64,000 bases of DNA from Patescibacteria group bacterium (GTDB taxonomy: Bacteria > Patescibacteriota > Minisyncoccia > UBA6257 > 2-01-FULL-56-20). The first letter of the stretch is position 1, and the number at the start of each line of letters is the position of its first letter. The notes under the pieces were generated by a model, which saw only the letters and a program-made list of their open reading frames with translations, made no database searches and had not been told where the DNA came from. A program made the position numbers and the translations under genes. Shown here in pieces: positions 3,698 through 63,225 of the stretch. Location of the stretch: assembly GCA_018971305.1 (NCBI GenBank), contig JAGXBC010000001.1, positions 31,408 to 95,407 of the forward strand, given 5' to 3'.

Positions 3698-3952
3698 TTC
3701 ACCGTTATTTCGCTTTATTTTATCGCATTTCTAAAAATAGGGCTACACATTTCGTTCTGAATAAGTTAGCATTCCATCATAACTGAATATGAGGCCTAAT
3801 CCCCGTAGAAATGCGAGGCAGGGCTAAAAATACCAGTCAAGGTCAAAGATCCCATCATGTGGGAGCGCCTTGACTGGTCATACCTCGAAAGGGGTATGGG
3901 TCTCGCAAGAGATCGCCCATGTGGTGGGTTTTTTGATGTTAAATATATCATC

Positions 3953-21750: not shown

Positions 21751-21895
21751 CTACGGAGCGGGTAAAGGGAGGCGAACAAAATTTCGCCTACGCGAAATTT
21801 TTTGAAACCCAGCGGTTTCAAAACTTCCGCAACGGGAAACCTCCCGGTTTCCCGACCCCATCCACGTTCGATTCCCATTATTACCAATTGCAGAT

Positions 21896-21930
21896 ATAAA
21901 ATCAGCCCACTTACAGCGAGCTGATTTTAT
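21896..21930. terminator. Palindromic hairpin (11-bp stem ATAAAATCAGC / GCTGATTTTAT), a plausible bidirectional terminator
   Basis: Perfect inverted repeat seen directly; it has A/T-rich ends on both sides and lies between the ABC operon and the tRNA gene. Confidence 0.45.
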
Positions 21931-21935
21931 ATCTG

Positions 21936-22006
21936 AGCGGGTAACGGGAATCGAACCCGTGTCTAAACCTTGGGAAGGTCTCGTTCTGCCACTGAACCAT
22001 ACCCGC
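21936..22006 (-). tRNA. tRNA-Gly (anticodon CCC)
   Basis: Minus-strand cloverleaf read by hand: acceptor GCGGGTA/TACCCGC, D-arm GTTC-AGTGGCA-GAAC, anticodon stem AGACC/GGTTT with loop TTCCCAA, T-arm ACGGG-TTCGATT-CCCGT, discriminator U; 71 nt, no encoded CCA. Confidence 0.8.
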
Positions 22007-29565: not shown

Positions 29566-31815
29566 TTACTTCTTCAAAATCTCCCTGAATACCTCCGGCG
29601 ATAAACTCACCCTGCCCGTTTCTTTCAATCTTTTTTTGCCTCGCTGCTGTTTTTTCCAAAGCTTCATTTTCCGTGTTCTGTCGCCGCCGTTCTTCCCGAA
29701 ATCGCCGAGTGCTTTCTTCATCGCAGCAATCGTCTCGCGCGCGACAATCCTGCCCATAGCCCGAGCCTGCACCGCTTGGGAAAATTGCTGTTTCGGAAGG
29801 AGCTCTTTTAATCTTTCAACTGAGGTCCGCGCCTCGCGTTCCATATCTTTTTTGGCAACTATGCGAGTCAAAGCCGGCACGACTTCCTCCGCCACCAAAA
29901 TTTCCAATTTCTCAACCTCCGCTTCCGCCTCGCCGTCCAACTCGTAGCTGAACGACGCAAATCCAGCTGATACCGATTTCAACTTGTCATCAAAATCACG
30001 GATAAGTTCGGAAAGCGGCATGCGCGCGATTATGAGCAGATTGTCACCGATATTTTTTATCTCGGAAACTTCAATATCGAAAATTGTTTTAAGATTAACG
30101 ACTTGGCTAAGGTAGGCCTGAGGCGCGAGTATTTCCATTTTTATCATCGGCTGCCAGACACGCTCGGGCTTCATGGGAAATTCGTGCGGTTCCTTGACGA
30201 TAAAATCTTTTCCGCCGTCGCGTACTCGGTAAGCGATAGAAGGAAAGCTTGTTAAAAATTCCAGATTGAATTCTCTCTCCAGGCGGCTCGCAGTAATTTC
30301 AAAGTGGAGCTGACCCAAAAAACCCACTTTTAAACCTCTGCCCAGAGCTTCGTTCGCGTCGGGCTCAAAGCTCAAAGCGGCGTCAGTTAAACGCAAACGT
30401 TCCAACCCCCTCTGTAAATCTTCAAATTTTGTATCTCCGTCCGGATAGAATGCTATAAAGACTACCGGCGCTGGCTCTTTATATCCATGCAATTGCTCCG
30501 CCTTTGAACCTGCAATCGCAATAGTGTCTCCAATATGAACTAGCGCTGGCTCCTTTAGCCCTGTTGCCACATAGCCCATTTCATCGGGACCTATCGCCGG
30601 GGTCGCCTTCAGTTCCGGAGAAAAATAACCGACCTCCTTGATTTTGAATTTTGCTCCCGTGGCGAGAAGAACAACTTCGCTTCCGGAATTAATAGAATTG
30701 TCGCTTACGCCGGGGAAAACCCGCACGAAAGCCAATATGCCTTTGTGATCGTCGTACAAAGAATCAAAAATCAAAGCACGCGGCTCTTGGCCTCCGGTAT
30801 CATCAATTTTTTTAGGCGGCGGCGTTTGCTTCACGACGCCACCCAAAAGTTCTTTAACTCCTTCGCCGGTCTTCGCAGAAATCCTGAATATCTCTTCTTC
30901 TCCAACTCCGAGTAAGTCCGCGGTTGCCTTAATCACTTTATTTATATGAGGCAGGTCCAGGTCTATTTTATTTACTGCTCCGATAATAGTAAGCCCGGCT
31001 TTTCGTGCCGCACGCAAATTAGAAAGTGTCTGCGCCTGGATTCCTTTCGCGCCGTCAATTAAAAGTACTGCCCCTTCAACTGCCGTTAATGCCCGCGAGA
31101 CCTCGTAAGAAAAATCGCTGTGGCCCGGGGTGTCAATCAGGTTGAGTATATACTCAACCTGCTCAGATTTTCGCAGATCAGACGCAGATGTACGCCGATC
31201 GCGAGCGGAATCGTAAACAATTCTTTCGATTTCAACGCCCTTGGGAGCAAAGTTGATCAAGAGAGATATTTTATAATCAGAACCTCGCAGATAAGACCAG
31301 GCTTGTTTTTTTTCGGTATCGCCAATAAAGGGCAGGGCTTTAAGCTCAATTAAAACCTCCTTATTGATCAGCAGGTCAGGATAATAATCGCCAACAGGTT
31401 TATCATCGTATTGTATTTTTAAATGCGGTTGGGCAATAAAATCAACGCCCCGACTTTTTAGCTCAATCTCCAAGGATTTCTGATATACCGATTCACGAAA
31501 TCCTGGACCAATTTTATTCCAAACATCAAAAGCAGCTCCTCGTATTTTGTAGGTTAATTCCTTGTATAAAAATTTGGTATCTGCGTTTATCTGCGTATCA
31601 TCGGCGTTAATCTGCGCAGGATGCTTATAGAGCATCCTGACGGGCGCCATTTTTATAGTAATCCCCCGCTCGCGCTCCAATTCCAATTTATCCAAATACT
31701 GCGGTTTCATCCGCCGCGCGTCCACCGTTCCCGTAATCTCCAAAAGTCGATCCGCCAAAGTTGATTTACCGGAGTCAATATGCGCGATAATTACGAAGTT
31801 TCTTATATTCTCCAT
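29566..31815 (-). CDS. lepA: Elongation factor 4 (LepA) with an in-frame ~156-aa GxxExxY / PD-(D/E)XK-like insertion in the G domain
   Basis: G1 AHIDSGKST, G2 RGITIK, G3 DTPGHSDF, and the LepA-specific C-terminus GDRTRKMKLWKKQQRGKKRLKETGRVSLSPEVF. Between G2 and G3 (residues ~66-221, nt ~31153-31620) lies a GxxExxY-family module GPGFRESVY...YPDLLINKEVLIELK. Start placed at MENIRNF. Confidence 0.85.
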   Translation of the reverse strand: MENIRNFVIIAHIDSGKSTLADRLLEITGTVDARRMKPQYLDKLELERERGITIKMAPVRMLYKHPAQINADDTQINADTKFLYKELTYKIRGAAFDVWNKIGPGFRESVYQKSLEIELKSRGVDFIAQPHLKIQYDDKPVGDYYPDLLINKEVLIELKALPFIGDTEKKQAWSYLRGSDYKISLLINFAPKGVEIERIVYDSARDRRTSASDLRKSEQVEYILNLIDTPGHSDFSYEVSRALTAVEGAVLLIDGAKGIQAQTLSNLRAARKAGLTIIGAVNKIDLDLPHINKVIKATADLLGVGEEEIFRISAKTGEGVKELLGGVVKQTPPPKKIDDTGGQEPRALIFDSLYDDHKGILAFVRVFPGVSDNSINSGSEVVLLATGAKFKIKEVGYFSPELKATPAIGPDEMGYVATGLKEPALVHIGDTIAIAGSKAEQLHGYKEPAPVVFIAFYPDGDTKFEDLQRGLERLRLTDAALSFEPDANEALGRGLKVGFLGQLHFEITASRLEREFNLEFLTSFPSIAYRVRDGGKDFIVKEPHEFPMKPERVWQPMIKMEILAPQAYLSQVVNLKTIFDIEVSEIKNIGDNLLIIARMPLSELIRDFDDKLKSVSAGFASFSYELDGEAEAEVEKLEILVAEEVVPALTRIVAKKDMEREARTSVERLKELLPKQQFSQAVQARAMGRIVARETIAAMKKALGDFGKNGGDRTRKMKLWKKQQRGKKRLKETGRVSLSPEVFREILKK

Positions 31816-31890
31816 GATGTGAGTGTACAAATAAAAATGGCCATCCACAAGGAATGGCCGGTAAAACATAACAAACACCCGACTCGGTCT

Positions 31891-32158: not shown

Positions 32159-34141
32159 CTATATCTTCTCCAATGTCAAGTTTACAATCAATCTTCCCGG
32201 CATGCCGCCCGACGATAGATCGGAATTACCGGAATCGTATTCATACACAGGCAGATCATTTTCTTTGAACTTATAGCCGACCGGAGCGCTGATAGTAAAT
32301 TTATAACTCCGTGGCGCGCCGATTCCCGGCAAAGCGGAAGTACTTGTGCTCTGCGGTATAAAAGTCCCCGCCTGTTTCTCAAATACAAATTGGTAGGTTT
32401 GCCCGTCCGAAGGCGCAAGCGGCAAACGGTGCGTGTAGTCAAAAACTAATTCTGTTTTCCCTCCGGCCGCAACGCGCGACCACGTGGCAAAAACCTCTTT
32501 ACCGAATTCTTCGTATTTAAAAGCGGCGGGGTAATTAAATATCCTTTCCGTGGAAGAATCTATTTGCCCCACAAAATCGTCTGCCATATATCCATTTTTC
32601 GCATAGTTGGTCGGCGCGTAAATTTTCTTTTCCAAACCACCACTGAAATTAGCTAGTTGGCTATCAGGCTGAACAAATACCTGAAGATAATCCTGATTCG
32701 TGGTTTTATACCACCAATCGCTGCCCTTATTCCCCTCGTGGGCGCGATCTATGGTTAAATGGTCGCTCACCGTTCCGTCTTCGTTAATCTGGCTCTCCAA
32801 AGAAACATCTTCTCTTACGAATAAATCCGATTTGCCGCCGCCGATATTCGCGTTCGCCACCGCAAGATAGTCGCCTTCAAAGTCATTCGGCAAGGCGTAA
32901 ACGCCGCCATCGCCGCCGTAGTAGGAAACAAATTTTTCCATATCGGGATCCGCAAAGTAAACCATCAAATCTTTATTCTTGAACCAATCCCGTACCAGCG
33001 ATATGAATGTCTGCTTTTGGGAACTGTCCATGGCCACAAGTTTCTTAAAAACCTCCGCCGCGAATTCTCTGAGCGCGGCTTTGGGATATGATACTCCGGT
33101 CACCTGTCCCTGTTCCACGCTTTTTTGTAATTCTCCCAAAAAATTTTCCGAGTCGATAGTCAATTTATAATCTTTTAATTCTATTGGTCCTGTTATATTC
33201 AATATGTCGGCAAGGACTTGCGGAGAAATTGCAATCGCCCCGCCAAAAATCGTGGAACTCGCGCTGTATAATTTGGAAGCGTCGGCAAATTTAACGGCTT
33301 GCGCCGCCGAAGACGGAAAATCAAAGAACCAATTGGAATCTGCAGTGCGCCAATTGGTAATAAGAGCTTGCAGCGGCTGCGGCGGAATCGTCTTTAAAGA
33401 AAGAGTCCGATCAATTTCGTTTATGTCATGAACCTCTGCTCCGGCAACTCCTCCCCGACCAATGGCCACATCCGCATAGCTTCCCAAAAATCCTCCGGCG
33501 GGGCGCATCTCCGAAGGATTCTGCAGCATGACAAAAATATGCCTCGGCGTGCCGGCGGAAAGCCAGCTTATCAGAGATTTCAAAAAATCATCAATACGAG
33601 CTATGTCCAGCTTCGCGGGAATATACATATCGAAAATCCCCGGTGAGATTCCTTCAAATTTTGAGGAGGCGGCGGATATCTCATCGCCGGCGGAGCTCAA
33701 CGAAGCCAAGGTTGCCTCGGTGGTTTTAAGGTGAGATAAGAATTCCTCGCCGTTACTTCCGGAGATTAGAGCCGATAGGTTATTTTCGAAATACGACAGC
33801 TCTTCTGCTATGGCCACACCTCCGGAAGCCAAATTTTTAAAGCCGGAGAGGGCATCTCCAGTCCCGCCGAACATTGATTGCAGTACAGAAATAAAGTCAC
33901 CGAACGACATATCCGTACCGCTCGCTACCGACAGGAATTTTTTCTGTGCGGCATCCGGATTAAGATTTTTCAAATCAGTTATTCCGGACCGGAAGTCGTC
34001 TAAATTGTTGGCCAAAGAGCTTTTAACTTTATTGGCTTGCCCGTAGATATATATTCCCGCCCCGGCGATAAAAATAATTATAAGAGCCGCTATCCCCCAA
34101 AAAATACCTTTGGGTAAAGAACGTTTTTCATTATCAGCCAT
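32159..34141 (-). CDS. Hypothetical large membrane-anchored extracytoplasmic protein (660 aa from MADNEKRS)
   Basis: Single N-terminal TM IFWGIAALIIIFIAGAGIYIY, then a large Gly/Ser/Asp-rich domain. Confidence 0.5.
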   Translation of the reverse strand: MADNEKRSLPKGIFWGIAALIIIFIAGAGIYIYGQANKVKSSLANNLDDFRSGITDLKNLNPDAAQKKFLSVASGTDMSFGDFISVLQSMFGGTGDALSGFKNLASGGVAIAEELSYFENNLSALISGSNGEEFLSHLKTTEATLASLSSAGDEISAASSKFEGISPGIFDMYIPAKLDIARIDDFLKSLISWLSAGTPRHIFVMLQNPSEMRPAGGFLGSYADVAIGRGGVAGAEVHDINEIDRTLSLKTIPPQPLQALITNWRTADSNWFFDFPSSAAQAVKFADASKLYSASSTIFGGAIAISPQVLADILNITGPIELKDYKLTIDSENFLGELQKSVEQGQVTGVSYPKAALREFAAEVFKKLVAMDSSQKQTFISLVRDWFKNKDLMVYFADPDMEKFVSYYGGDGGVYALPNDFEGDYLAVANANIGGGKSDLFVREDVSLESQINEDGTVSDHLTIDRAHEGNKGSDWWYKTTNQDYLQVFVQPDSQLANFSGGLEKKIYAPTNYAKNGYMADDFVGQIDSSTERIFNYPAAFKYEEFGKEVFATWSRVAAGGKTELVFDYTHRLPLAPSDGQTYQFVFEKQAGTFIPQSTSTSALPGIGAPRSYKFTISAPVGYKFKENDLPVYEYDSGNSDLSSGGMPGRLIVNLTLEKI

Positions 34142-34262
34142 TTGATAAATTCTAACGCGGCAGGCAAGAAACTCAAAAGCCGGAAAAATAAAAACCTGGA
34201 TTAAAAGATACAAGCTTATGGCAGGTGATGTTCAATCTTTTTGCTATAATAAACTTAATTGC

Positions 34263-47497: not shown

Positions 47498-47512
47498 TCG
47501 TACTCACACAAT

Positions 47513-47551
47513 AATAAAAATACCCCTAGCATTAGGCTAGGGGTATTTTTA
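47513..47551. terminator. Bidirectional Rho-independent terminator between the convergent 47129 ORF and the HIT gene
   Basis: Stem acccctagc(47522-47530)/gctaggggt(47536-47544), flanked by AATAAAAAT upstream and ATTTTTA downstream. Confidence 0.65.
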
Positions 47552-47556
47552 TTAAA

Positions 47557-56469: not shown

Positions 56470-59400
56470 CTACTCGGTTTGCGATTCTTTTGCAACTTCT
56501 GGAACGGGAGCCTGAAGCTCCGATACTTCATCATCGGAATCACCGGCTCTTTTCACCTTAATCTCTCCGGAAGGTATTAATCTGCCTATAATCACATTTT
56601 CTTTAAGCCCGCGCAGATTATCGGTCCTGCCCTCGATAGCCGCCTTCACTAAAACTCTTGCCGTATCCTGGAAAGACGCTGCGGCAAGGAAACTATCGGA
56701 AGAAATAGCAACCCGCGTTATGCCTAATAGAATTTCTTCGGCCTTAGCAACCTTGAGACCCTGTTTTTTAAGTTCTTTATTGACGTCCATCAGCAAAGCT
56801 TTTTCAATGATTTCCCCCATGACAAAATCCGAAGCATCTCCGGCATCCTTGATTTTAACCCTGGAGAACATCTGCTTGATGATAACTTCTATGTGCTTGT
56901 TGTTTATAGAGGCACCTTCGGAGAGATAGATCCTTTGAACTTCGTTCACAACGTAGCGCTCAACTTCCCTTACGCCTCTGAATTCCAAAAGTTCTCTCAA
57001 GTCAATGTGACCCTCGGAAATCTGCTGGCCTTTTTCAATTTTATCTCCGGCTTTCACGAACAAAAGAGCGGAACGCGGCACCGAGAACTCCTGGGCTTTT
57101 TTCTTTTTGGTTTTCTGAGGATTTTTTTCCAATAGTTTTATTATCTTGCTCGTCCCCTTTTCTTCTATAACATCAATCGAGCAATCAAAGGGAGCTAAAA
57201 TAGCCTTGCCTTTCGGCGGGCGGACTTCAAAAATTTCTTCCACGCGCGGCAAACCGTGGGTGATGTCCACTCCGGCAACACCTCCGGTGTGGAAAGTTCT
57301 CATCGTAAGCTGCGTTCCAGGTTCACCGATTGATTGCGCGGCAAGTACCCCTACCGCTCCACCCAGTTTAACCGGTTCATTGCTGCCGAGATCCAGTCCG
57401 TAACAAGTGGCGCAAAGACCGTAAAGAGTTTTACAGTAAATAGCCGAACGAACTTTAACTGATTCCAATTTGGATTTATCCAGCATCTCGGCTATCGCTC
57501 TTGTGATCACTTCTCCGGCGCGAACAACGATCTTCCTGTCGATTCTTATGTCTTCTAAAGCTGTTCTTGAGAACACTCTGCTAGAAAAAGACTGATTGAA
57601 TTCTTTCCCGTCTTTGCGCAAAATTTCTATCCCCTCTTTCGCGCGGCAATCGTTTTCCCTGATTATGAGATCCTGAGAAACATCAACCAAACGCCTGGTA
57701 AGATATCCTGCTTGTGCAGTTTTTAAAGCCGTGTCCGTAGTACCCTTTCTAGCGCCGGTAGTGGAAATAAAGTATTCCAAAACAGAAAGACCCTCTTTAA
57801 AAGATGATTTGATAGGCAATTCAATCGTTTCTCCTTTCGGATTAGCCACCAATCCTTTCATACCCAACATCTGTATCGGCTGAGCCCAGGAACCGCGCGA
57901 ACCGGAATCGATAATCTGGTAGATGGAATTGTTCTTCGGCAGGGAAGTGGCAACAAGCTTGGCAATGGTTTCCTTCGCTTTTTCCCAGACGCTGATTGTC
58001 CGCGCCCTGCGCTCGGATTCGGTAAGCAAACCCTCGTTCCACTGATCGTGAACAATGTCTATTTCTTTTTCTGACGCTCTGATGATATCTTCCTTTGTGC
58101 CAGGTGCGACAAGGTCGGATATTGCCCAAGTGATTCCAGACCTTGTGGCCATATCAAAACCGAGTGATTTTACCTCATCCAAAACCTCGCGAGTCACCTT
58201 TAATCCGCGGCTCTCCAATATCTTTTCAATAATAGAAGTAAGTTTTTTCTTGTTAATCGTGTCATTTACAAAATCCGCAGCGCCGCACAGGGCTTTATTA
58301 AACATCAACCGGCCCAAGGTTGTTTTTATTCCCTGGGATAATATCGGGTCGTGAAGCTTCAGGCTCCCTGACTCGTAGGCCAATACCGCCTCATCAAAAC
58401 CGGACATAGCTTTTATAAGGGCTTGGTTATCTTCTTTTATAAGTGTCAGATAATAAATACCGAGGACGACATCCTGGGTCGGATTGGTAATAAGATCACC
58501 GGTAGCTGGTTTCAAAAGATTTTGTCCGGCAGACATTATAGTAGCTGCTTCGTGCTGGGCATTCTCAGAAAGCGGCAGGTGGAGAGCCATTTGGTCACCA
58601 TCGAAGTCGGCGTTAAAAGCCGCGCAAACAAGCGGCGGAACGTGTATGGCTAATCCCTCAACAAGAAGCGGCCTGAAAGCCTGTACGCTCAAACGATGCA
58701 AGGTAGGAGCCCTGTTCAATAGAACCCATTTGTCTTTTATAATTTCTTCCAAAATCGCCCAAACCTCGTCACCGCCTTCTTCCATGAAGCGATTGGCGCT
58801 CCTGATGTTATGGGCCAATCCTCTTTTCATAACTTCGCTCAAAACGAACGGACGGAAAAGTTCCAAGGCCATTCGCTTGGGAACTCCGCACTCGTCAATT
58901 TTCAATTTAGGACCGACGACAATAACCGAACGGCCGGAGTAATCAACTCTTTTACCCAAAAGGTTCTGGCGGAACCTTCCTTGTTTGCCCTTAAGCATAT
59001 CTGCAAGGGAACGAAGCGGACGGCGCTGAGCGGACAATTGCTGCGTGCCGAAACGGGCAGAATTATCTATGAGGGCATCAACGGATTCCTGGAGCATTCT
59101 TTTCTCATTCCTCACGATCACATCTGGAGCTTTGATCTCCAAAAGCTTCTTCAAACGGTTATTGCGGTTGATGACGCGCCGATATAGGTCATTAAGATCG
59201 GATGTCGCATAGCGGCCGCCGTCCAGCGCGACCATCGGGCGCAGATCCGGAGGCAAAACCGGCAAAACATTAATTATCAGCCATTCCGGACGAGCCTGGT
59301 TCTTTATCATGGAACGGAACATCTTCAGGCGGCGCAATAATTTACCCTGGGTAAGCGGGTCTTTCGCGCCTTCAAGCTCTTTTTCTATCTCTCTCATCTC

Positions 59401-62400
59401 TTTTCTCAGATCCATTGACTTCAAAATTTCATATACGGCTTCTGCGCCGCTGCCCGCTTTGAACACATCGCCGAAGCGGCGGGAGAGATTGAAATATTCG
59501 GTCTCGCTCAAAACCTGGCCAACGCTAAGGTTTTCCAGGTAATTTCCGGTAACATCTGCTGCCTCGTTAAGTTCCTGTTTGGTCTTTTTGTCTTTGCCGC
59601 CAATCTTCAATTTACCCTTGAGCTGACGATTCAGGTCTTCCAAAGCCTGCTTCCTCAATTCTTCGTTAACCTCCGTGACAATATAAGCGGAGAAATAAAT
59701 AACTCTTTCCAGCTTTGTAGAAGGAACGTTAAGGGTCAGACTGAGGCGCGAGGGAACGCTCTTCAGAAACCAAATATGGCTGACCGGAGCTGCCAAGGCA
59801 ATGTGCCCGATTCTTTCGCGCCGCACGACAGCTCTTGTTACTTCAACACCGCACTTGTCGCAGACGACACCCTTATAACGAATCCTCCTGTACTTACCGC
59901 AATAGCATTCGTAATCTTTAGTCGGACCGAAAATTCTTTCCGAGAACAATCCGTCTTTTTCCGGACGCTGAGTTCTATAATTAATAGTTTCCGGTTTAAC
60001 CACCTCACCGTGTGACCATTTTAGAATATCTTCTGGAGAAGCGACGCTGATTTTAAGAGACTTGAAATCCTCCTTACGGGACATTTCTGACTCGTATGTC
60101 GGCTGAATATTAAAACACAACGATTTCAACTCGTTCACTAAAACATTGAAAGATGCCGGAAGATTCGGTTCCTTAATGGATTCGCCTCGAATAATAGACT
60201 CGTAAGCGGCGGCCCGTCCTAAGACATCATCCGACTTAATGGTCAGCATTTCCTGCAGGGTGTGGCGTGCCCCGTATCCCTCTAGGGCCCAGACTTCCAT
60301 TTCCCCGAAACGCTGCCCGCCGAATTGAGCTTTGCCGCCAAGCGGCTGTTGCGTAATTAAGGAATATGGTCCGATAGAACGCATATGCGCTTTATCTTCC
60401 ACTAAATGGTTGAGCTTCATGATATAAACCTGTCCGACCATTACCTTATTATCGAACTGCTTACCGCTCCTGCCGTCGTAAAGGGCAACCTTGCCGTCTT
60501 CGGGAAGCCCGGCTTTCTTTAATTCTTCTTTAATCTCCTCTTCGCTAGAAGAATCTAATCCGGGAGTAATGGCCCGATAACCGAGACGCTGGGCGGCCCA
60601 GCCTAAGTGAGTTTCCAAAATTTGCCCCAAGTTCATACGCGAAGCGACGCCAAGCGGATTCAAAATAATGTCTACCGGTGTCCCGTCTTCAAGATAAGGC
60701 ATATCTTCCACGCGCCTTACCTGGGAAATAACACCCTTGTTTCCGTGCCTGCCGGCAAGCTTATCTCCGGCCTGCACCTTACGAAGCTCAGCCACCTCAA
60801 CCTGAATTCTCTTGATGATTCCCGGCTCCAGCTTATCTCCTTTCTCACGGTCAAAAACCTTGATGTTCACAACGCGTCCGCGCTTGCCGTGAGGCAAGGT
60901 AAGAGACGTATCTTTCACATCGCGCGCTTTCTCTCCGAAAATAGCCCTGAGCAACCGCTCTTCAGAAGTAAGCTCGGCTTCGCCTTTCGGAGAAATTTTA
61001 CCAACCAAAATATCGCCGGATCTGACTTCTGCTCCGATTCTTACAATTCCTTCCTCGTCCAGATTCCTCAGTTTCTCCTCGGAAACGTTCGGGATGTCTG
61101 GTGTTGTGAGTTCCGGACCGAGCTTCGTGTCACGGACATCGTGGTAATAATCTTCTATATGGATGGAGGTGAATAGGTCGTCGCGCACAACCCGTTCAGA
61201 AAGAATAATTGCGTCCTCAAAATTCGCGCCTTCCCAAGACATGAACGAGACAAGAAGATTCTGTCCGAGAGCGAGCACTCCATTATCAATAGACGGCCCG
61301 TCAACCAAAACCTCTCCCTTCTTAACCGACTGTCCGGAGACGACAAGCGGCCTCTGGGATATACAGGTGAATTGGTTGGATCTCTTGAATTTTTCCAGTA
61401 TATAATTTTTTACGCTCTTAGCGTATTTAACTTTTACGTGGTTGCCATCCGATTCCAGGATCTTTCCATCCGCTTCGGCAATAACAACATAACCGGAATC
61501 GCGCGCCACTCTGTCCTCTTCTCCGGTGGAAACATAAGGAGCGTTCGGCCTAACGGAAACGACAGCTTGACGCTGCATGTTAGAACCCATCAGAGCGCGA
61601 TTGGCATCGTCGTGCTGCAAGAAAGGTATTAAAGATGTTGCCACGCTTACAAACTGATGGGGAGCAATGTCCGTAAAATCAAGGTCTTTGGGAGCGCAGG
61701 TGCTCGGCGCGCCATGAACTCTCGCCTCTACCAAATCTCCGGCAATATTGCCTTCGGGATCTTTTGCAACTCCCGCATGCGTAATTTTGTATTTCTCTTC
61801 TTCCAGGGCATCCAGCCAAACTATTTCTTCAGTAATACGACCGTTTTTAACCCTCGCGTAAGGCGTCTCTAAAAAACCGAAATCATTAACCCGAGCAAAG
61901 CTTGCTAAATAGTTGATGAGGCCGATATTGGCGCCTTCCGGAGTCTGAATCGGACAAATCCTGCCGTAATGCGAACGATGAACGTCACGCACTTCAAAGC
62001 TGGCGCGTTCGCGAGTAAGTCCGCCGGGGCCCAAAGCCGAAATTCTGCGCTTGTGTTCCAGCTCTGCCAATGGATTTACCTGGTCCATAAACTGCGAAAG
62101 CTGTGAGGATGCAAAAAACTCCTTGATAACCGCCGAGACGGGACGGAAATTAATTAGCTGCGCCGGCATCAGACGTTCCTTCTCTTCTGTGGACATCCTG
62201 TCCTGAATAATTCTGCGCAGGCGGGCGAAACCTATTCTTAATCTTCCTTGCAGCAACTCGCCAACAGCTTTAAGCCTTCTGTTTCCAAGGTGATCAATGT
62301 CGTCTGGCTGGGCGGCTGGATCATTATTTAAAGATATTATCTCGCGCACAATGCCGATGATGTCATCAAGGTCAAGAAGACGGTTATCTTTTTTACTGCC

Positions 62401-63225
62401 GAACTTCAACCGCTGATTGGTTTTGAAGCGGCCCACCGGAGACAGGTCGTATCTGTCCAAACGCTGGAACATAGCATCAATCAAGCTCTTGGCCGTTGCC
62501 GGCGTCGCCGGGTCACCCGGGCGCAAACGGCGGTAAATTTCCATATACGATTCATCAACGTTCTTAGCTACATCTTTTTTAAACGTAGCTTCAATATATT
62601 TGGCACCAACGCCGGGGAAAGCGTCTTTGATCTTATCCTCTTCCATACCGAAAATACGAAGCATATCTGTAACCGGCACCTTGCGGCGACGGTCGATTTT
62701 AACATGTATGGCTCCGTCCAAGTCGGTTTCAAATTCCAGCCAGGCACCCCTATTCGGAATAACCTTGGCCCCAAAAAGCTGCCTGCCCCTCGTAGGGACG
62801 GCGGTAAGATAAACCCCAGCCGATCTGATAAGCTGAGACACGACAACACGCTCAACGCCGTTAATAATAAAAGTGCCGCGCTCGGTCATTATCGGAAATT
62901 CCCCAAAATAAACTTCTTGCGTTTCCTTGTGGCCAGTTTTCTTGCTCTCCAGAGTAAGCTTTATGCGCAACGCTGCTTCATATGTGGCATCGCGATATCG
63001 CGCAGTGGCTTCGTCGTACTTAGGTTCATCAAAATGGTAATCACTGAAGCTCAATTCCAGTTCCTTACCGGTGTGGTCATAAATAGGAGAAATCTCGTCC
63101 AATAGTTCCCGTAATCCCTTTTTAAGGAACCACTCATAAGATTTCAACTGAGTCTCATTCAGATTGAATGGCTTGATGAGGGACTGGGATTTAGAGAAGT
63201 TTTTGGTTGATAAAAATTTAGGCAT
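56470..63225 (-). CDS. rpoBC: Fused DNA-directed RNA polymerase beta-beta' subunit (RpoB-RpoC in one 2251-aa ORF)
   Basis: The N-terminal ~1020 aa carry RpoB motifs ([29 protein letters not shown]; ...[48 protein letters not shown]). After the short linker [14 protein letters not shown], RpoC follows: zinc finger [35 protein letters not shown] catalytic loop. No stop or frame change occurs across the junction (~60.07-60.10 kb). Confidence 0.9.

What the first reader, a model, noticed from the sequence alone, without database searches (positions are those of the whole stretch)
29566..31815. In-frame GxxExxY / PD-(D/E)XK nuclease-like module inserted in the GTPase domain of LepA (EF4)
LepA is normally ~600 aa; here it is 749 aa. 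The extra ~156 residues (nt ~31153-31620) sit between G2/switch I (RGITIK) and G3 (DTPGH). Their core matches the GxxExxY protein family end to end (GPGFRESVY; YPDLLINKEVLIELK with an intact PD...E.K nuclease-like triad; LLINFAPKGVEIERIV). That family is otherwise known from small free-standing ORFs in hypervariable spots such as 23S rRNA intervening sequences. The N-junction carries a tandemly repeated ATCTGCG motif (31579, 31589, 31610), which encodes QINADDTQINAD. The C-junction coincides with a perfect 18-bp palindrome gttgagtatatactcaac (31141-31158), which encodes VEYILN. I see no intein Hint or LAGLIDADG blocks and no Cys/Ser/Thr at the +1 position, so this looks like a non-spliced domain insertion: a mobile nuclease-like module domesticated inside an essential translation factor.
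Basis: partly seen in the sequence, partly recalled or inferred. Interest (0 to 1): 0.8.

Follow-up and report, generated by a model that had tools for sequence, protein, structure and literature searches.

The report
Mobile nuclease cassette inside LepA
The LepA gene of this candidate-phyla-radiation bacterium carries an in-frame, hairpin-flanked nuclease cassette that looks like a selfish mobile element read through as part of its host protein, and close relatives of it sit in LepA, RecG, LeuRS, ValRS, GatB and SecA genes across this bacterial radiation.

Summary
ORF 29566-31815(-) is a 749-aa LepA/EF4. A complete GxxExxY / PDDEXK_3 domain sits in frame in the beta2-beta3 turn of its G domain.

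The "domesticated" reading is not supported.
- The cassette has four ACGCAGAT-like units on each side. Together they form the longest inverted repeat in the window.
- At both junctions the insert-side sequence is the reverse complement of the adjacent host codons.
- The same architecture recurs in at least 45 LepA genes of GTDB species and 21 protein clusters. It also occurs in frame in RecG, LeuRS, ValRS, GatB and SecA.
- Cassette and host histories are decoupled: Spearman 0.03, and 231 of 741 pairs have a cassette much more similar than the host.
- Near-identical hosts carry different cassettes, and the closest LepA relatives lack one.
- The domain is under purifying selection (dN/dS 0.04-0.2) with invariant catalytic D, E and K.
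- AlphaFold2 gives a confident separate domain on two disordered linkers.

No intein, intron or direct target duplication was found, and none of the papers my searches returned describes it.

Best reading: a selfish, unspliced, in-frame homing-like cassette. This is a new variant among in-frame selfish insertions. Mobility and nuclease activity are inferred, not shown.

The parts
29566..31815 (-). lepA (EF4) coding sequence, 749 aa plus stop, interrupted in frame by the cassette
   Evidence: TIGR01393 605 bits; GTP_EFTU, EFG_C and LepA_C domains. It is identical to public protein P0049.
31624..31815 (-). Host part 1: LepA residues 1-64 (P-loop/G1, switch I with RGITIK, strand beta2 VRMLYK)
   Evidence: alignment with insert-less LepA; beta2 = residues 59-64 in the AlphaFold2 model.
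31156..31623 (-). Whole insertion relative to insert-less LepA (residues 65-220, 156 aa)
   Evidence: empty alleles read VRMSYK-GYVLNL (L085) and VRMHYSLGSARYILNL (L084).
31617..31639 (-). 5' junction hairpin CAGGATGC-tctataa-GCATCCTG. The first arm is host codons R-M-L; the second arm (K-H-P-A) is their reverse complement.
   Evidence: The same construction is seen in 45 LepA cassettes: own complementarity 6.9 nt against 4.65 swapped, p = 1.4e-6.
31579..31616 (-). 5' arm: four ACGCAGAT-like units (CGCAGAT taa CGCCGAT gata CGCAGAT aaa CGCAGAT), read as AQINADDTQINAD
   Evidence: The motif ACGC(A/G)GA occurs in the arms of cassettes from all hosts, 2.75 copies per arm against 0.21 in background, with a spacing peak at 10 nt. 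pLDDT is below 50 for residues 70-80.
31216..31563 (-). GxxExxY / PDDEXK_3 nuclease-fold core (LepA residues 85-200). Motif residues: G105xxE108xxY111, P146-D147 (nt 31375-31377), E157 (31345-31347), K159 (31339-31341).
31162..31199 (-). 3' arm: ATCGGCG tac ATCTGCG tctg ATCTGCG aaa ATCTGAG, complementary to the 5' arm, read as RRTSASDLRKSE
   Evidence: inverted repeat I1/I2; arms pair in the RNA fold, z = -3.85; own arms -65.9 against swapped -43.5 kcal/mol for the window. pLDDT is below 50 for residues 204-218.
31138..31161 (-). 3' junction: perfect 24-nt palindrome CAGGTTGAGTAT|ATACTCAACCTG. The second half is host codons I-L-N-L; the first half (Q-V-E-Y) is their reverse complement.
   Evidence: (I6). 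32 of 45 LepA cassettes have at least 8 nt of perfect complementarity to their own host flank: 9.6 against 5.76 swapped, p = 2e-7.
29566..31155 (-). Host part 2: LepA residues 221-749 (beta3, G3 DTPGH, rest of the G domain, domains II-V and the LepA C-terminal domain)

Best explanation
The insert is one copy of a family of selfish DNA cassettes that live inside protein-coding genes of candidate-phyla-radiation (CPR) bacteria.

A cassette has three parts:
- a PD-(D/E)XK nuclease gene of the GxxExxY family, with no start codon, ribosome-binding site or stop codon of its own;
- two complementary arms made of phased ACGC(A/G)GA units;
- at each junction, an inverted copy of the neighbouring host codons.

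It is not removed at the RNA or protein level. The host's ribosomes read straight through it. The arms become two disordered hydrophilic linkers, and the nuclease hangs as an extra domain from a surface turn. Here that turn is the beta2-beta3 hairpin between switch I and G3 of LepA, so the host protein can still work (shown for the reading frame and the predicted fold; inferred for function).

The nuclease is kept active by selection (inferred). It promotes the cassette's spread into cassette-free copies of the same conserved site in other genomes, in a homing-like way, and occasionally into new sites in other conserved proteins (inferred from distribution and phylogeny).

The inverted host-flank copies differ between closely related cassettes and match each local host. 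They are therefore made from the recipient at or after integration. The likely route is hairpin or fold-back processing of the broken target ends, as with P nucleotides. This is the weakest step.

The phased arm motifs are most likely binding sites for the nuclease (inferred).
For: Continuous reading frame. The 80 loci were found through the nuclease domain alone. In 62 of them the frame stays open into recognisable host domains on both sides: LepA 46, RecG 10, LeuRS 3, ValRS 1, GatB 1, SecA 1. No out-of-frame case was seen.

Fold. The full-length AlphaFold2 model gives pLDDT 82-98 for residues 82-203 and below 50 for both arms, with beta2 and beta3 intact.

Selection. Catalytic D, E and K are invariant. 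dN/dS of the core is 0.04-0.2.

Mobility.
- Insert-bearing LepA are not monophyletic, and the closest relatives P0068-P0070, P0073 and P0074 lack the insert.
- Host and cassette identity are uncorrelated: Spearman 0.10 in 21 proteins and 0.035 in 39 loci.
- In the 39 loci, 231 of 741 pairs have a cassette at least 15 points more similar than the host, and nearest neighbours agree in only 5 of 39.
- Cassette dN is about 3-fold lower than host dN in many pairs.
- L086 and L087 have hosts 85-95% identical in DNA but cassettes only 40-67% identical.
- Cassettes from different host genes are interleaved in the tree.
- P0064 carries the cassette at a second LepA site.

Arms. Own arms pair better than swapped arms, -53.9 against -42.5 kcal/mol. 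They share the ACGC(A/G)GA motif at 10-nt phasing, about 13-fold enriched.

Junction palindromes. They match each cassette's own host codons and are also present in RecG, LeuRS, GatB and LepA site 2. They are absent from the empty alleles L084 and L085. Cassettes 86-89% identical (L012/L014, L048/L056) have quite different 5' copies, each matching its own host.

Arms-only versions. Related in-frame hairpin inserts with arms but no ORF occur at five or more further LepA sites.
Against: - No experiment or omics data were available. Translation through the cassette, nuclease activity, cleavage of empty sites and present-day mobility are all inferred.
- The window's own copy has only 76%-complementary arms and lies on a long branch of the cassette tree, so it may be an old, fixed copy.
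- No other copy lies in the 64-kb window, and none was found in viral contigs, so the vehicle of horizontal spread is unknown.
- The trees are neighbour-joining without bootstrap support.
- I saw no DNA motif shared by the target sites of the different hosts when reading the junctions by eye. How a site is chosen is therefore unexplained.
- PD-(D/E)XK enzymes are hydrolytic and are not known to form hairpin ends, so the origin of the junction palindromes is speculative.
- Purifying selection on the domain is equally expected if the domain serves the host.
Confidence: 0.68

Rival explanations
1. Domesticated domain. A once-mobile nuclease module became a fixed, useful part of LepA, for example a ribosome-tethered nuclease or nucleic-acid-binding module, and is now inherited vertically.
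For: The domain sits at the same site across many CPR lineages. It is under strong purifying selection with an intact catalytic triad. It is predicted to be well folded on flexible linkers.
Against: - Presence is patchy, with insert-less sisters.
- There is no host-cassette co-divergence.
- Different cassettes sit in near-identical hosts.
- Close relatives of the cassette sit in RecG, LeuRS, ValRS, GatB and SecA, where no common host benefit is apparent.
- The arms and junction palindromes are conserved at the DNA level, which a protein function does not need.
Confidence: 0.12
2. RNA-level intervening sequence. As in 23S rRNA intervening sequences or archaeal bulge-helix-bulge introns, the long stem is cut out of the transcript by RNase III or by the encoded nuclease, and mature LepA lacks the insert.
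Against: - All 62 insertions inside host genes are in frame and stop-free at both junctions. Removal at the RNA level would not require this, and out-of-frame insertions would then be tolerated, yet none was seen.
- The arms are read in one preferred hydrophilic frame, TQxNAD on the 5' side and RxSA on the 3' side.
- Rfam finds no intron family in the window.
- From my own knowledge, no mRNA religation pathway of this kind is known in bacteria.
Confidence: 0.07
3. Inert relic in this genome. The family was mobile, but this particular copy is a fixed, no longer mobile passenger that is merely tolerated.
For: The arms are only 76% complementary. The copy lies on a long isolated branch. It is the single copy in 64 kb.
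Against: The catalytic residues and the full-length HMM match are intact. The closest cassettes (P0051, P0053, P0055, P0067; 73-76% identical in the core) keep all motifs. The 3' junction palindrome is perfect over 24 nt, which argues against long neutral decay.
Confidence: 0.2
4. Intein or other protein-splicing element.
For: It is an in-frame insertion next to conserved motifs of housekeeping proteins. From my own knowledge, the host types (helicase, tRNA synthetases, translation factor) resemble those of inteins.
Against: There is no Hint or intein domain and no LAGLIDADG or HNH domain. There is no conserved Cys, Ser or Thr at either junction: the junction residues vary with host codon choice, for example HPD, HAN or HSN.
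Confidence: 0.01

Closest known systems
Rickettsia palindromic elements (RPE; Ogata et al. 2000, from my own knowledge; also named in review PMC10969869, listed)
   Same: Both are palindromic DNA repeats inserted in frame into conserved protein-coding genes. Both are translated as extra hydrophilic peptide at surface positions without destroying the host protein. The arms-only inserts found here in LepA relatives behave just like this.
   Different: From my own knowledge, RPEs carry no gene. Here a subset of elements carries a complete nuclease ORF in the hairpin loop. The arms share a phased ACGC(A/G)GA motif. The junctions carry inverted copies of the host flanks. The elements are in CPR bacteria, not Rickettsia. 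No sequence comparison with RPEs was made.
ShiLan-type unspliced homing insertions in phage DNA methylase genes (PMC11855218)
   Same: Both are insertions in a conserved gene that evolve like an active homing element. Both have no stop codon when read in the host frame, no intein or intron features, and are predicted to loop out of the host protein.
   Different: In ShiLan the HNH endonuclease is hidden in another reading frame with its own GTG start and TAA stop. Here the PD-(D/E)XK nuclease is itself read in the host frame as a domain of the host protein, and it is flanked by palindromic arms and junction palindromes.
23S rRNA intervening sequences carrying GxxExxY (TIGR04256) or four-helix-bundle ORFs
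   Same: The ORF family is the same, and so is the layout: an ORF in the loop of a long stem made by complementary flanks. Free-standing CPR GxxExxY genes show the same terminal arms, for example TRKNAD at the start and RRPSA at the end.
   Different: The host is an mRNA, not an rRNA. The element must stay translatable and does so (62 of 62 in frame). None of the 20 free-standing loci examined lay in an rRNA gene. The survey of CPR rRNA insertions has no text match for PDDEXK or 'nuclease superfamily' (PMC11270868).
Inteins and free-standing homing endonuclease genes
   Same: Shared features are recurrence at the same conserved sites of housekeeping genes, patchy distribution, phylogeny incongruent with the host, and selection on the nuclease.
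   Different: There is no splicing domain. Expression is as a permanent domain of the host protein. The nuclease family is different. DNA-level arms and inverted flank copies are not features of inteins.
Transposons with terminal inverted repeats, and P-nucleotide footprints of hairpin-forming transposases (hAT, RAG; from my own knowledge)
   Same: Both have inverted terminal arms with repeated subterminal motifs. Palindromic copies of flanking DNA are what off-centre opening of hairpin-capped ends produces.
   Different: There is no direct target-site duplication. The palindromic flank copies are present with the element in place, not at an excision scar. The enzyme is a small PD-(D/E)XK protein, not a DDE transposase.

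Membership tests
GxxExxY protein / PDDEXK_3 (TIGR04256, PF13366) | Full-length match to the family models above the curated cut-offs | tested here: met
   TIGR04256 111-115 bits (cut-off 35), profile 1-116 of 116. PF13366 109-114 bits (cut-off 22), profile 1-116 of 117.
GxxExxY protein / PDDEXK_3 (TIGR04256, PF13366) | GxxExxY motif and PD...(D/E)xK catalytic residues | tested here: met
   G105-E108-Y111, P146-D147, E157-x-K159. D, E and K are invariant in 47 aligned family members and in all 21 LepA inserts.
GxxExxY protein / PDDEXK_3 (TIGR04256, PF13366) | Restriction-endonuclease-like fold | tested here: met
GxxExxY protein / PDDEXK_3 (TIGR04256, PF13366) | Nuclease activity | not testable with these tools
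   The family's function is listed as 'Unknown' in PMC3424549. No chain in the PDB matches by sequence.
LepA / EF4 (TIGR01393 equivalog) | Score above the equivalog cut-off, with GTP_EFTU, EFG_C and LepA_C domains | tested here: met
   605 bits against 533.9. PF00009, PF00679 and PF06421 are all present.
Intein | Hint splicing domain and nucleophilic residues at both splice junctions | tested here: not met
   No Hint or intein family at E <= 0.01. Junction residues are variable and dictated by host codon complements.
Group I / group II intron | Match to a catalytic intron RNA model | tested here: not met
   Rfam at gathering thresholds finds only a LOOT RNA and one tRNA in the window. The reading frame is continuous through the insert.
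rRNA intervening sequence (IVS) | Long stem formed by the flanks, closing a loop that may carry an ORF | tested here: met
   Arms 31579-31616 and 31162-31199 pair.
rRNA intervening sequence (IVS) | Located in an rRNA helix and excised by RNase III without religation | tested here: not met
   The insert lies in a protein-coding gene. It is in frame and stop-free in 62 of 62 host-gene insertions. Excision itself cannot be tested here.
Homing endonuclease element | Recurrent occupation of one conserved site, with sporadic distribution and phylogeny discordant with the host | tested here: met
Homing endonuclease element | The encoded nuclease cuts the cassette-free allele | not testable with these tools
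   This needs biochemistry. Empty alleles for the test are L084 and L085.
In-frame palindromic repeat (RPE-like) | Palindromic element inserted in frame in conserved genes and tolerated as a surface peptide | tested here: met
   arms-only inserts, -38 to -101 kcal/mol hairpins; arms disordered.
Cut-and-paste DNA transposon | Direct target-site duplication flanking terminal inverted repeats | tested here: not met
   Inverted arms are present. The longest direct repeat between the two junctions is 5.46 nt against 5.33 nt in shuffles, p = 0.49. Inverted flank copies are found instead.

The most novel reading that the evidence does not exclude
These cassettes define a previously unrecognised class of prokaryotic mobile element. 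An element of this class:
- is a hairpin-armed PD-(D/E)XK nuclease gene with no expression signals of its own;
- is expressed only as an in-frame domain of the conserved protein it invades;
- integrates into broken target DNA whose ends have been folded back, leaving inverted rather than direct duplications of the target flanks;
- decays into ORF-less in-frame hairpin elements.

The same machinery would explain the origin of GxxExxY-bearing rRNA intervening sequences, and it would give the first function for the PF13366 family.
Probability: 0.4. Interest if true: 0.9.

Novelty: new variant of a known kind. Interest (0 to 1): 0.8.

Why it matters
- **A function for an uncharacterised family.** PF13366 / TIGR04256 is large, widely transferred and listed with unknown function (PMC3424549). 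This finding gives it a concrete, testable role as the nuclease of a mobile cassette.
- **A third way for a selfish element to live in a vital gene.** Self-splicing introns and inteins remove themselves. This element stays in, translated as a tolerated extra domain.
- **Insertions in CPR housekeeping proteins.** It may account for some of the unexplained length insertions in these proteins, including those in LeuRS, ValRS, SecA, RecG and GatB.
- **An unusual integration chemistry.** The inverted copies of the target flanks point to something different from the direct duplications left by ordinary transposons.
- **Annotation.** NCBI names this LepA, and at least one other insert-bearing LepA, 'GxxExxY protein'. 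That hides a core translation factor in gene-content surveys of CPR genomes.
- **Protein engineering.** The permissive sites mark natural positions where these proteins appear to accept a 120-aa domain.

Tried and rejected
- **Other copies in the window.** tblastn of the insert found only itself. A peptide-plus-folding screen for arms-only elements in all window ORFs found nothing.
- **Solved structures by sequence.** No PDB chain matched at E <= 1.
- **Intein or intron.** No such Pfam or Rfam family was found.
- **rRNA context for free-standing relatives.** Rfam on 20 loci found only tRNAs.
- **Phage carriers.** A scan of viral contigs with the insert alignment found no relative.
- **Locus search with the divergent alignment A3.** It was redone with 12 LepA inserts (A4).
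- **Direct target-site duplication.** None above shuffled controls.
- **Literature.** Searches for GxxExxY, PF13366, CPR plus LepA plus insertion, and palindromic in-frame CPR insertions found no description of this arrangement.
- **Not run, to save shared compute.** I did not use the third large protein search or the representative-library search to list further host proteins.
Full report
**1.

The minus-strand ORF 29566..31878 contains the LepA start MENIRNF at 31815, which gives 749 aa.
- TIGR01393 (lepA) scores 605 bits against a cut-off of 533.9, in two stretches.
- Between those stretches, PF13366 PDDEXK_3 matches residues 85-198 (profile 1-116 of 117, E 1.6e-31). TIGR04256 GxxExxY matches residues 86-200 (profile 1-116 of 116).
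- Alignment with insert-less relatives places the extra 156 residues (65-220, nt 31156-31623) in the turn between strand beta2 (VRMLYK) and strand beta3 (EYILNLIDTPGH). That is between switch I and G3.
- The ATCTGCG repeats at 31579, 31589 and 31610 are confirmed.
- The palindrome at the other junction is confirmed and is a perfect 24-mer, 31138-31161.

**2. The anatomy is richer than reported**

- The inverse motif CGCAGAT occurs at 31172 and 31183. The two flanks of the nuclease ORF are therefore complementary arms: 31579-31616 against 31162-31199, extended by the repeat finder to 51 nt at 76%. This is the longest inverted repeat in the 64-kb window.
- Folded as one strand, the arms pair. 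A small hairpin sits immediately outside each arm (z = -3.85).
- At the 5' junction, CAGGATGC (host codons R-M-L) pairs with GCATCCTG (31617-31639).
- At the 3' junction, the first half of the 24-nt palindrome is the reverse complement of host codons I-L-N-L.

**3. It is not unique to this genome**

- The exact protein is public. NCBI names it 'GxxExxY protein'.
- Twenty other LepA protein clusters (746-823 aa; those named by NCBI are Liptonbacteria, Paceibacterota or unclassified bacteria) carry the domain at the same place. One (P0064) carries it at a second LepA site.
- The closest LepA relatives by core identity (P0068-P0070, P0073, P0074) have no insert.
- I searched one genome per GTDB species with an alignment of 12 LepA inserts. 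This returned 80 loci.
- Extending the reading frame from the nuclease match, which makes no assumption about a host, showed 62 loci in frame and stop-free inside larger genes:
  - LepA at this same site: 46
  - RecG: 10
  - LeuRS: 3
  - ValRS, GatB and SecA: 1 each
- The rest are free-standing genes of 125-240 aa, mostly in other phyla.
- The taxon labels of some metagenome bins (for example Gammaproteobacteria) should not be trusted. Their LepA and cassette sequences resemble the CPR ones.

**4. The cassette behaves as a mobile element, not as a fixed domain**

- In a neighbour-joining tree of 588 core LepA columns, insert-bearing proteins are scattered among insert-less ones.
- Host and cassette identities are uncorrelated. 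Spearman is 0.10 for 21 proteins and 0.035 for 39 loci.
- In the 39 loci, 231 of 741 pairs have a cassette at least 15 points more similar than the host. Nearest neighbours agree in only 5 of 39.
- In both directions the divergence ratio is too extreme for co-inheritance:
  - P0072 and P0055 have LepA cores 90% identical but cassettes 54% identical. At the DNA level the identity falls from 85-95% to 40-67% exactly over the cassette.
  - L032 and L048 have cassette dN 0.146 against host dN 0.444.
- Cassettes from RecG, LeuRS, ValRS, GatB and SecA are interleaved with LepA cassettes in the cassette tree. This suggests occasional jumps between sites.
- These trees carry no support values. The distance-based statistics do not depend on them.

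**5. The nuclease domain is maintained and the arms are linkers**

- The catalytic Asp of PD and the Glu and Lys of ExK are invariant in 47 family members and in every LepA insert.
- dN/dS of the core is 0.04-0.2 wherever dS is measurable.
- AlphaFold2 on the full protein with 120 homologues gives pLDDT 82-98 for residues 82-203 and below 50 for residues 70-80 and 204-218. These low-confidence stretches are the two arms. beta2 and beta3 are in place.

**6. Two DNA-level features are shared by the cassettes examined**

*Arms.*
- Each cassette's own arms pair better than arms swapped between cassettes, -53.9 against -42.5 kcal/mol.
- The arms share one motif, ACGC(A/G)GA, with TC(C/T)GCG on the other arm. 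There are 2.75 copies per arm against 0.21 expected from host coding sequence.
- Spacing peaks sharply at 10 nt. This suggests a phased binding array.

*Junctions.*
- The insert-side sequence next to each junction is the reverse complement of that cassette's own host codons.
- For 45 LepA cassettes, the longest perfect complement is 6.9 nt at the 5' side (swapped partners 4.65, shuffled 4.16, p = 1.4e-6). At the 3' side it is 9.6 nt (5.76, 4.48, p = 2e-7), and 32 of 45 reach 8 nt or more.
- The encoded residues change accordingly. After VRM they read HPD, HAN, HSN or HPH, according to the Val and Arg codons used.
- The same construction is seen in RecG, LeuRS, GatB and the second LepA site. 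Examples are 12-13-bp stems in L052 and L054, and 14 bp in L002.
- It is also seen in arms-only inserts.
- It is absent from the empty alleles L084 and L085.
- Cassettes that are 86-89% identical (L012/L014, L048/L056) have unrelated 5' copies, each matching its own host. The copies therefore appear to be made from the recipient, not carried by the element.
- There is no direct target-site duplication.

**7. Arms-only relatives**

The same LepA proteins carry 8-54-aa in-frame inserts at five or more other positions. These read TQxNA(D/E) on one side and (Q/P)R(E/K)SA on the other. Their DNA forms strong hairpins, -38 to -101 kcal/mol. They resemble Rickettsia palindromic elements. They are either decayed cassettes or the non-autonomous form of the same element.

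**8. Explanation and rivals**

The best-supported reading is a selfish cassette that is never spliced out.
- It borrows the host's translation signals.
- It is tolerated because it sits in a surface turn on disordered linkers.
- It spreads horizontally to the same conserved sites, in a homing-like way.
- Its integration leaves inverted copies of the target flanks.

What is shown:
- the continuous reading frame;
- the predicted domain and linker architecture;
- selection on the domain;
- recurrence at the same site;
- patchy distribution;
- discordant host and cassette histories;
- the arm motif;
- host-specific junction complements.

What is inferred:
- nuclease activity;
- what the nuclease cuts or binds;
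- function of the fusion protein;
- the fold-back (P-nucleotide-like) origin of the junction palindromes.

Rivals:
- *Domestication.* It explains the selection on the domain. It does not explain the patchiness, the swaps, the other host proteins or the DNA-level signals.
- *RNA-level removal.* It fits the intervening-sequence-like stem. It is contradicted by 62 of 62 in-frame, stop-free insertions.
- *Intein or intron.* The defining features are absent.
- *Old, fixed copy.* This particular copy may be one, given the imperfect arms and the long branch. Its motifs and its 24-nt junction palindrome are intact.

**9. What is known**

- PF13366 is listed with unknown function and many horizontal transfers (PMC3424549).
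- Full-text searches for GxxExxY and PF13366 gave three and two papers. None describes this arrangement.
- The survey of CPR rRNA insertions has no text match for PDDEXK or 'nuclease superfamily'.
- The nearest described case is the ShiLan insertion in phage methylase genes. It is unspliced and tolerated in frame, but its HNH nuclease is in another frame with its own start and stop (PMC11855218).
- I therefore rate this a new variant of a known kind: in-frame selfish insertions.
- There is a substantial chance that the integration mode makes it a class of its own.

Noticed in passing
window 3793-3914 (+): Rfam LOOT RNA, full-length match (93.7 bits against gathering score 46.4). The only other Rfam hit in the window is a tRNA at 21936-22006 (-).
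   Followed up: no
window 56470-63225 (-): A very large ORF of 2251 aa. It contains two moderate inverted repeats (57410-57619 and 60740-60902). It was not characterised.
   Followed up: no
window 29566-31815 (-), public protein P0049: NCBI names this LepA, and a second insert-bearing LepA (P0053), 'GxxExxY protein'. Others are named elongation factor 4 or hypothetical protein. The insert therefore hides lepA in annotation-based gene surveys.
   Followed up: partly
L001 5994-6086 and 6327-6467; L003 5187-5285, 5601-5690 and 6222-6419: Arms-only in-frame hairpin inserts (8-54 aa) at five or more further positions of LepA in relatives. They have the same arm motifs, and at least some have the same host-flank complements.
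   Followed up: partly
L041 (LeuRS residues 658-822) and L024 (LeuRS residues 588-686): The same CPR LeuRS genes that carry the nuclease cassette also hold other inserted domains: a serine hydrolase / alpha-beta hydrolase in L041 and a NUDIX domain in L024.
   Followed up: no
L042 (ValRS) and L047 (GatB): Each also carries an arms-only insert elsewhere in the same protein: LSRINADIRVNQRKYPRKSAF in ValRS and HQRISADMNLRQSASL in GatB.
   Followed up: no
L086 compared with L087, alignment columns 900-930, 1110-1170 and 1470-1560: Two LepA genes about 90% identical differ in the nuclease cassette. They also differ in which arms-only elements occupy three other sites. These sites therefore turn over quickly.
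   Followed up: partly
window 47512-47554 and 21891-21935: A perfect 19-nt inverted repeat with a 5-nt loop, and a 21-nt inverted repeat at 90% directly next to the tRNA gene. Both look like terminators.
   Followed up: no
window 32159-34213 (-): In relatives L001, L003, L084 and L085 the gene upstream of lepA is a DUF4012 protein. The 684-aa ORF in the same position in the window was not scanned.
   Followed up: no
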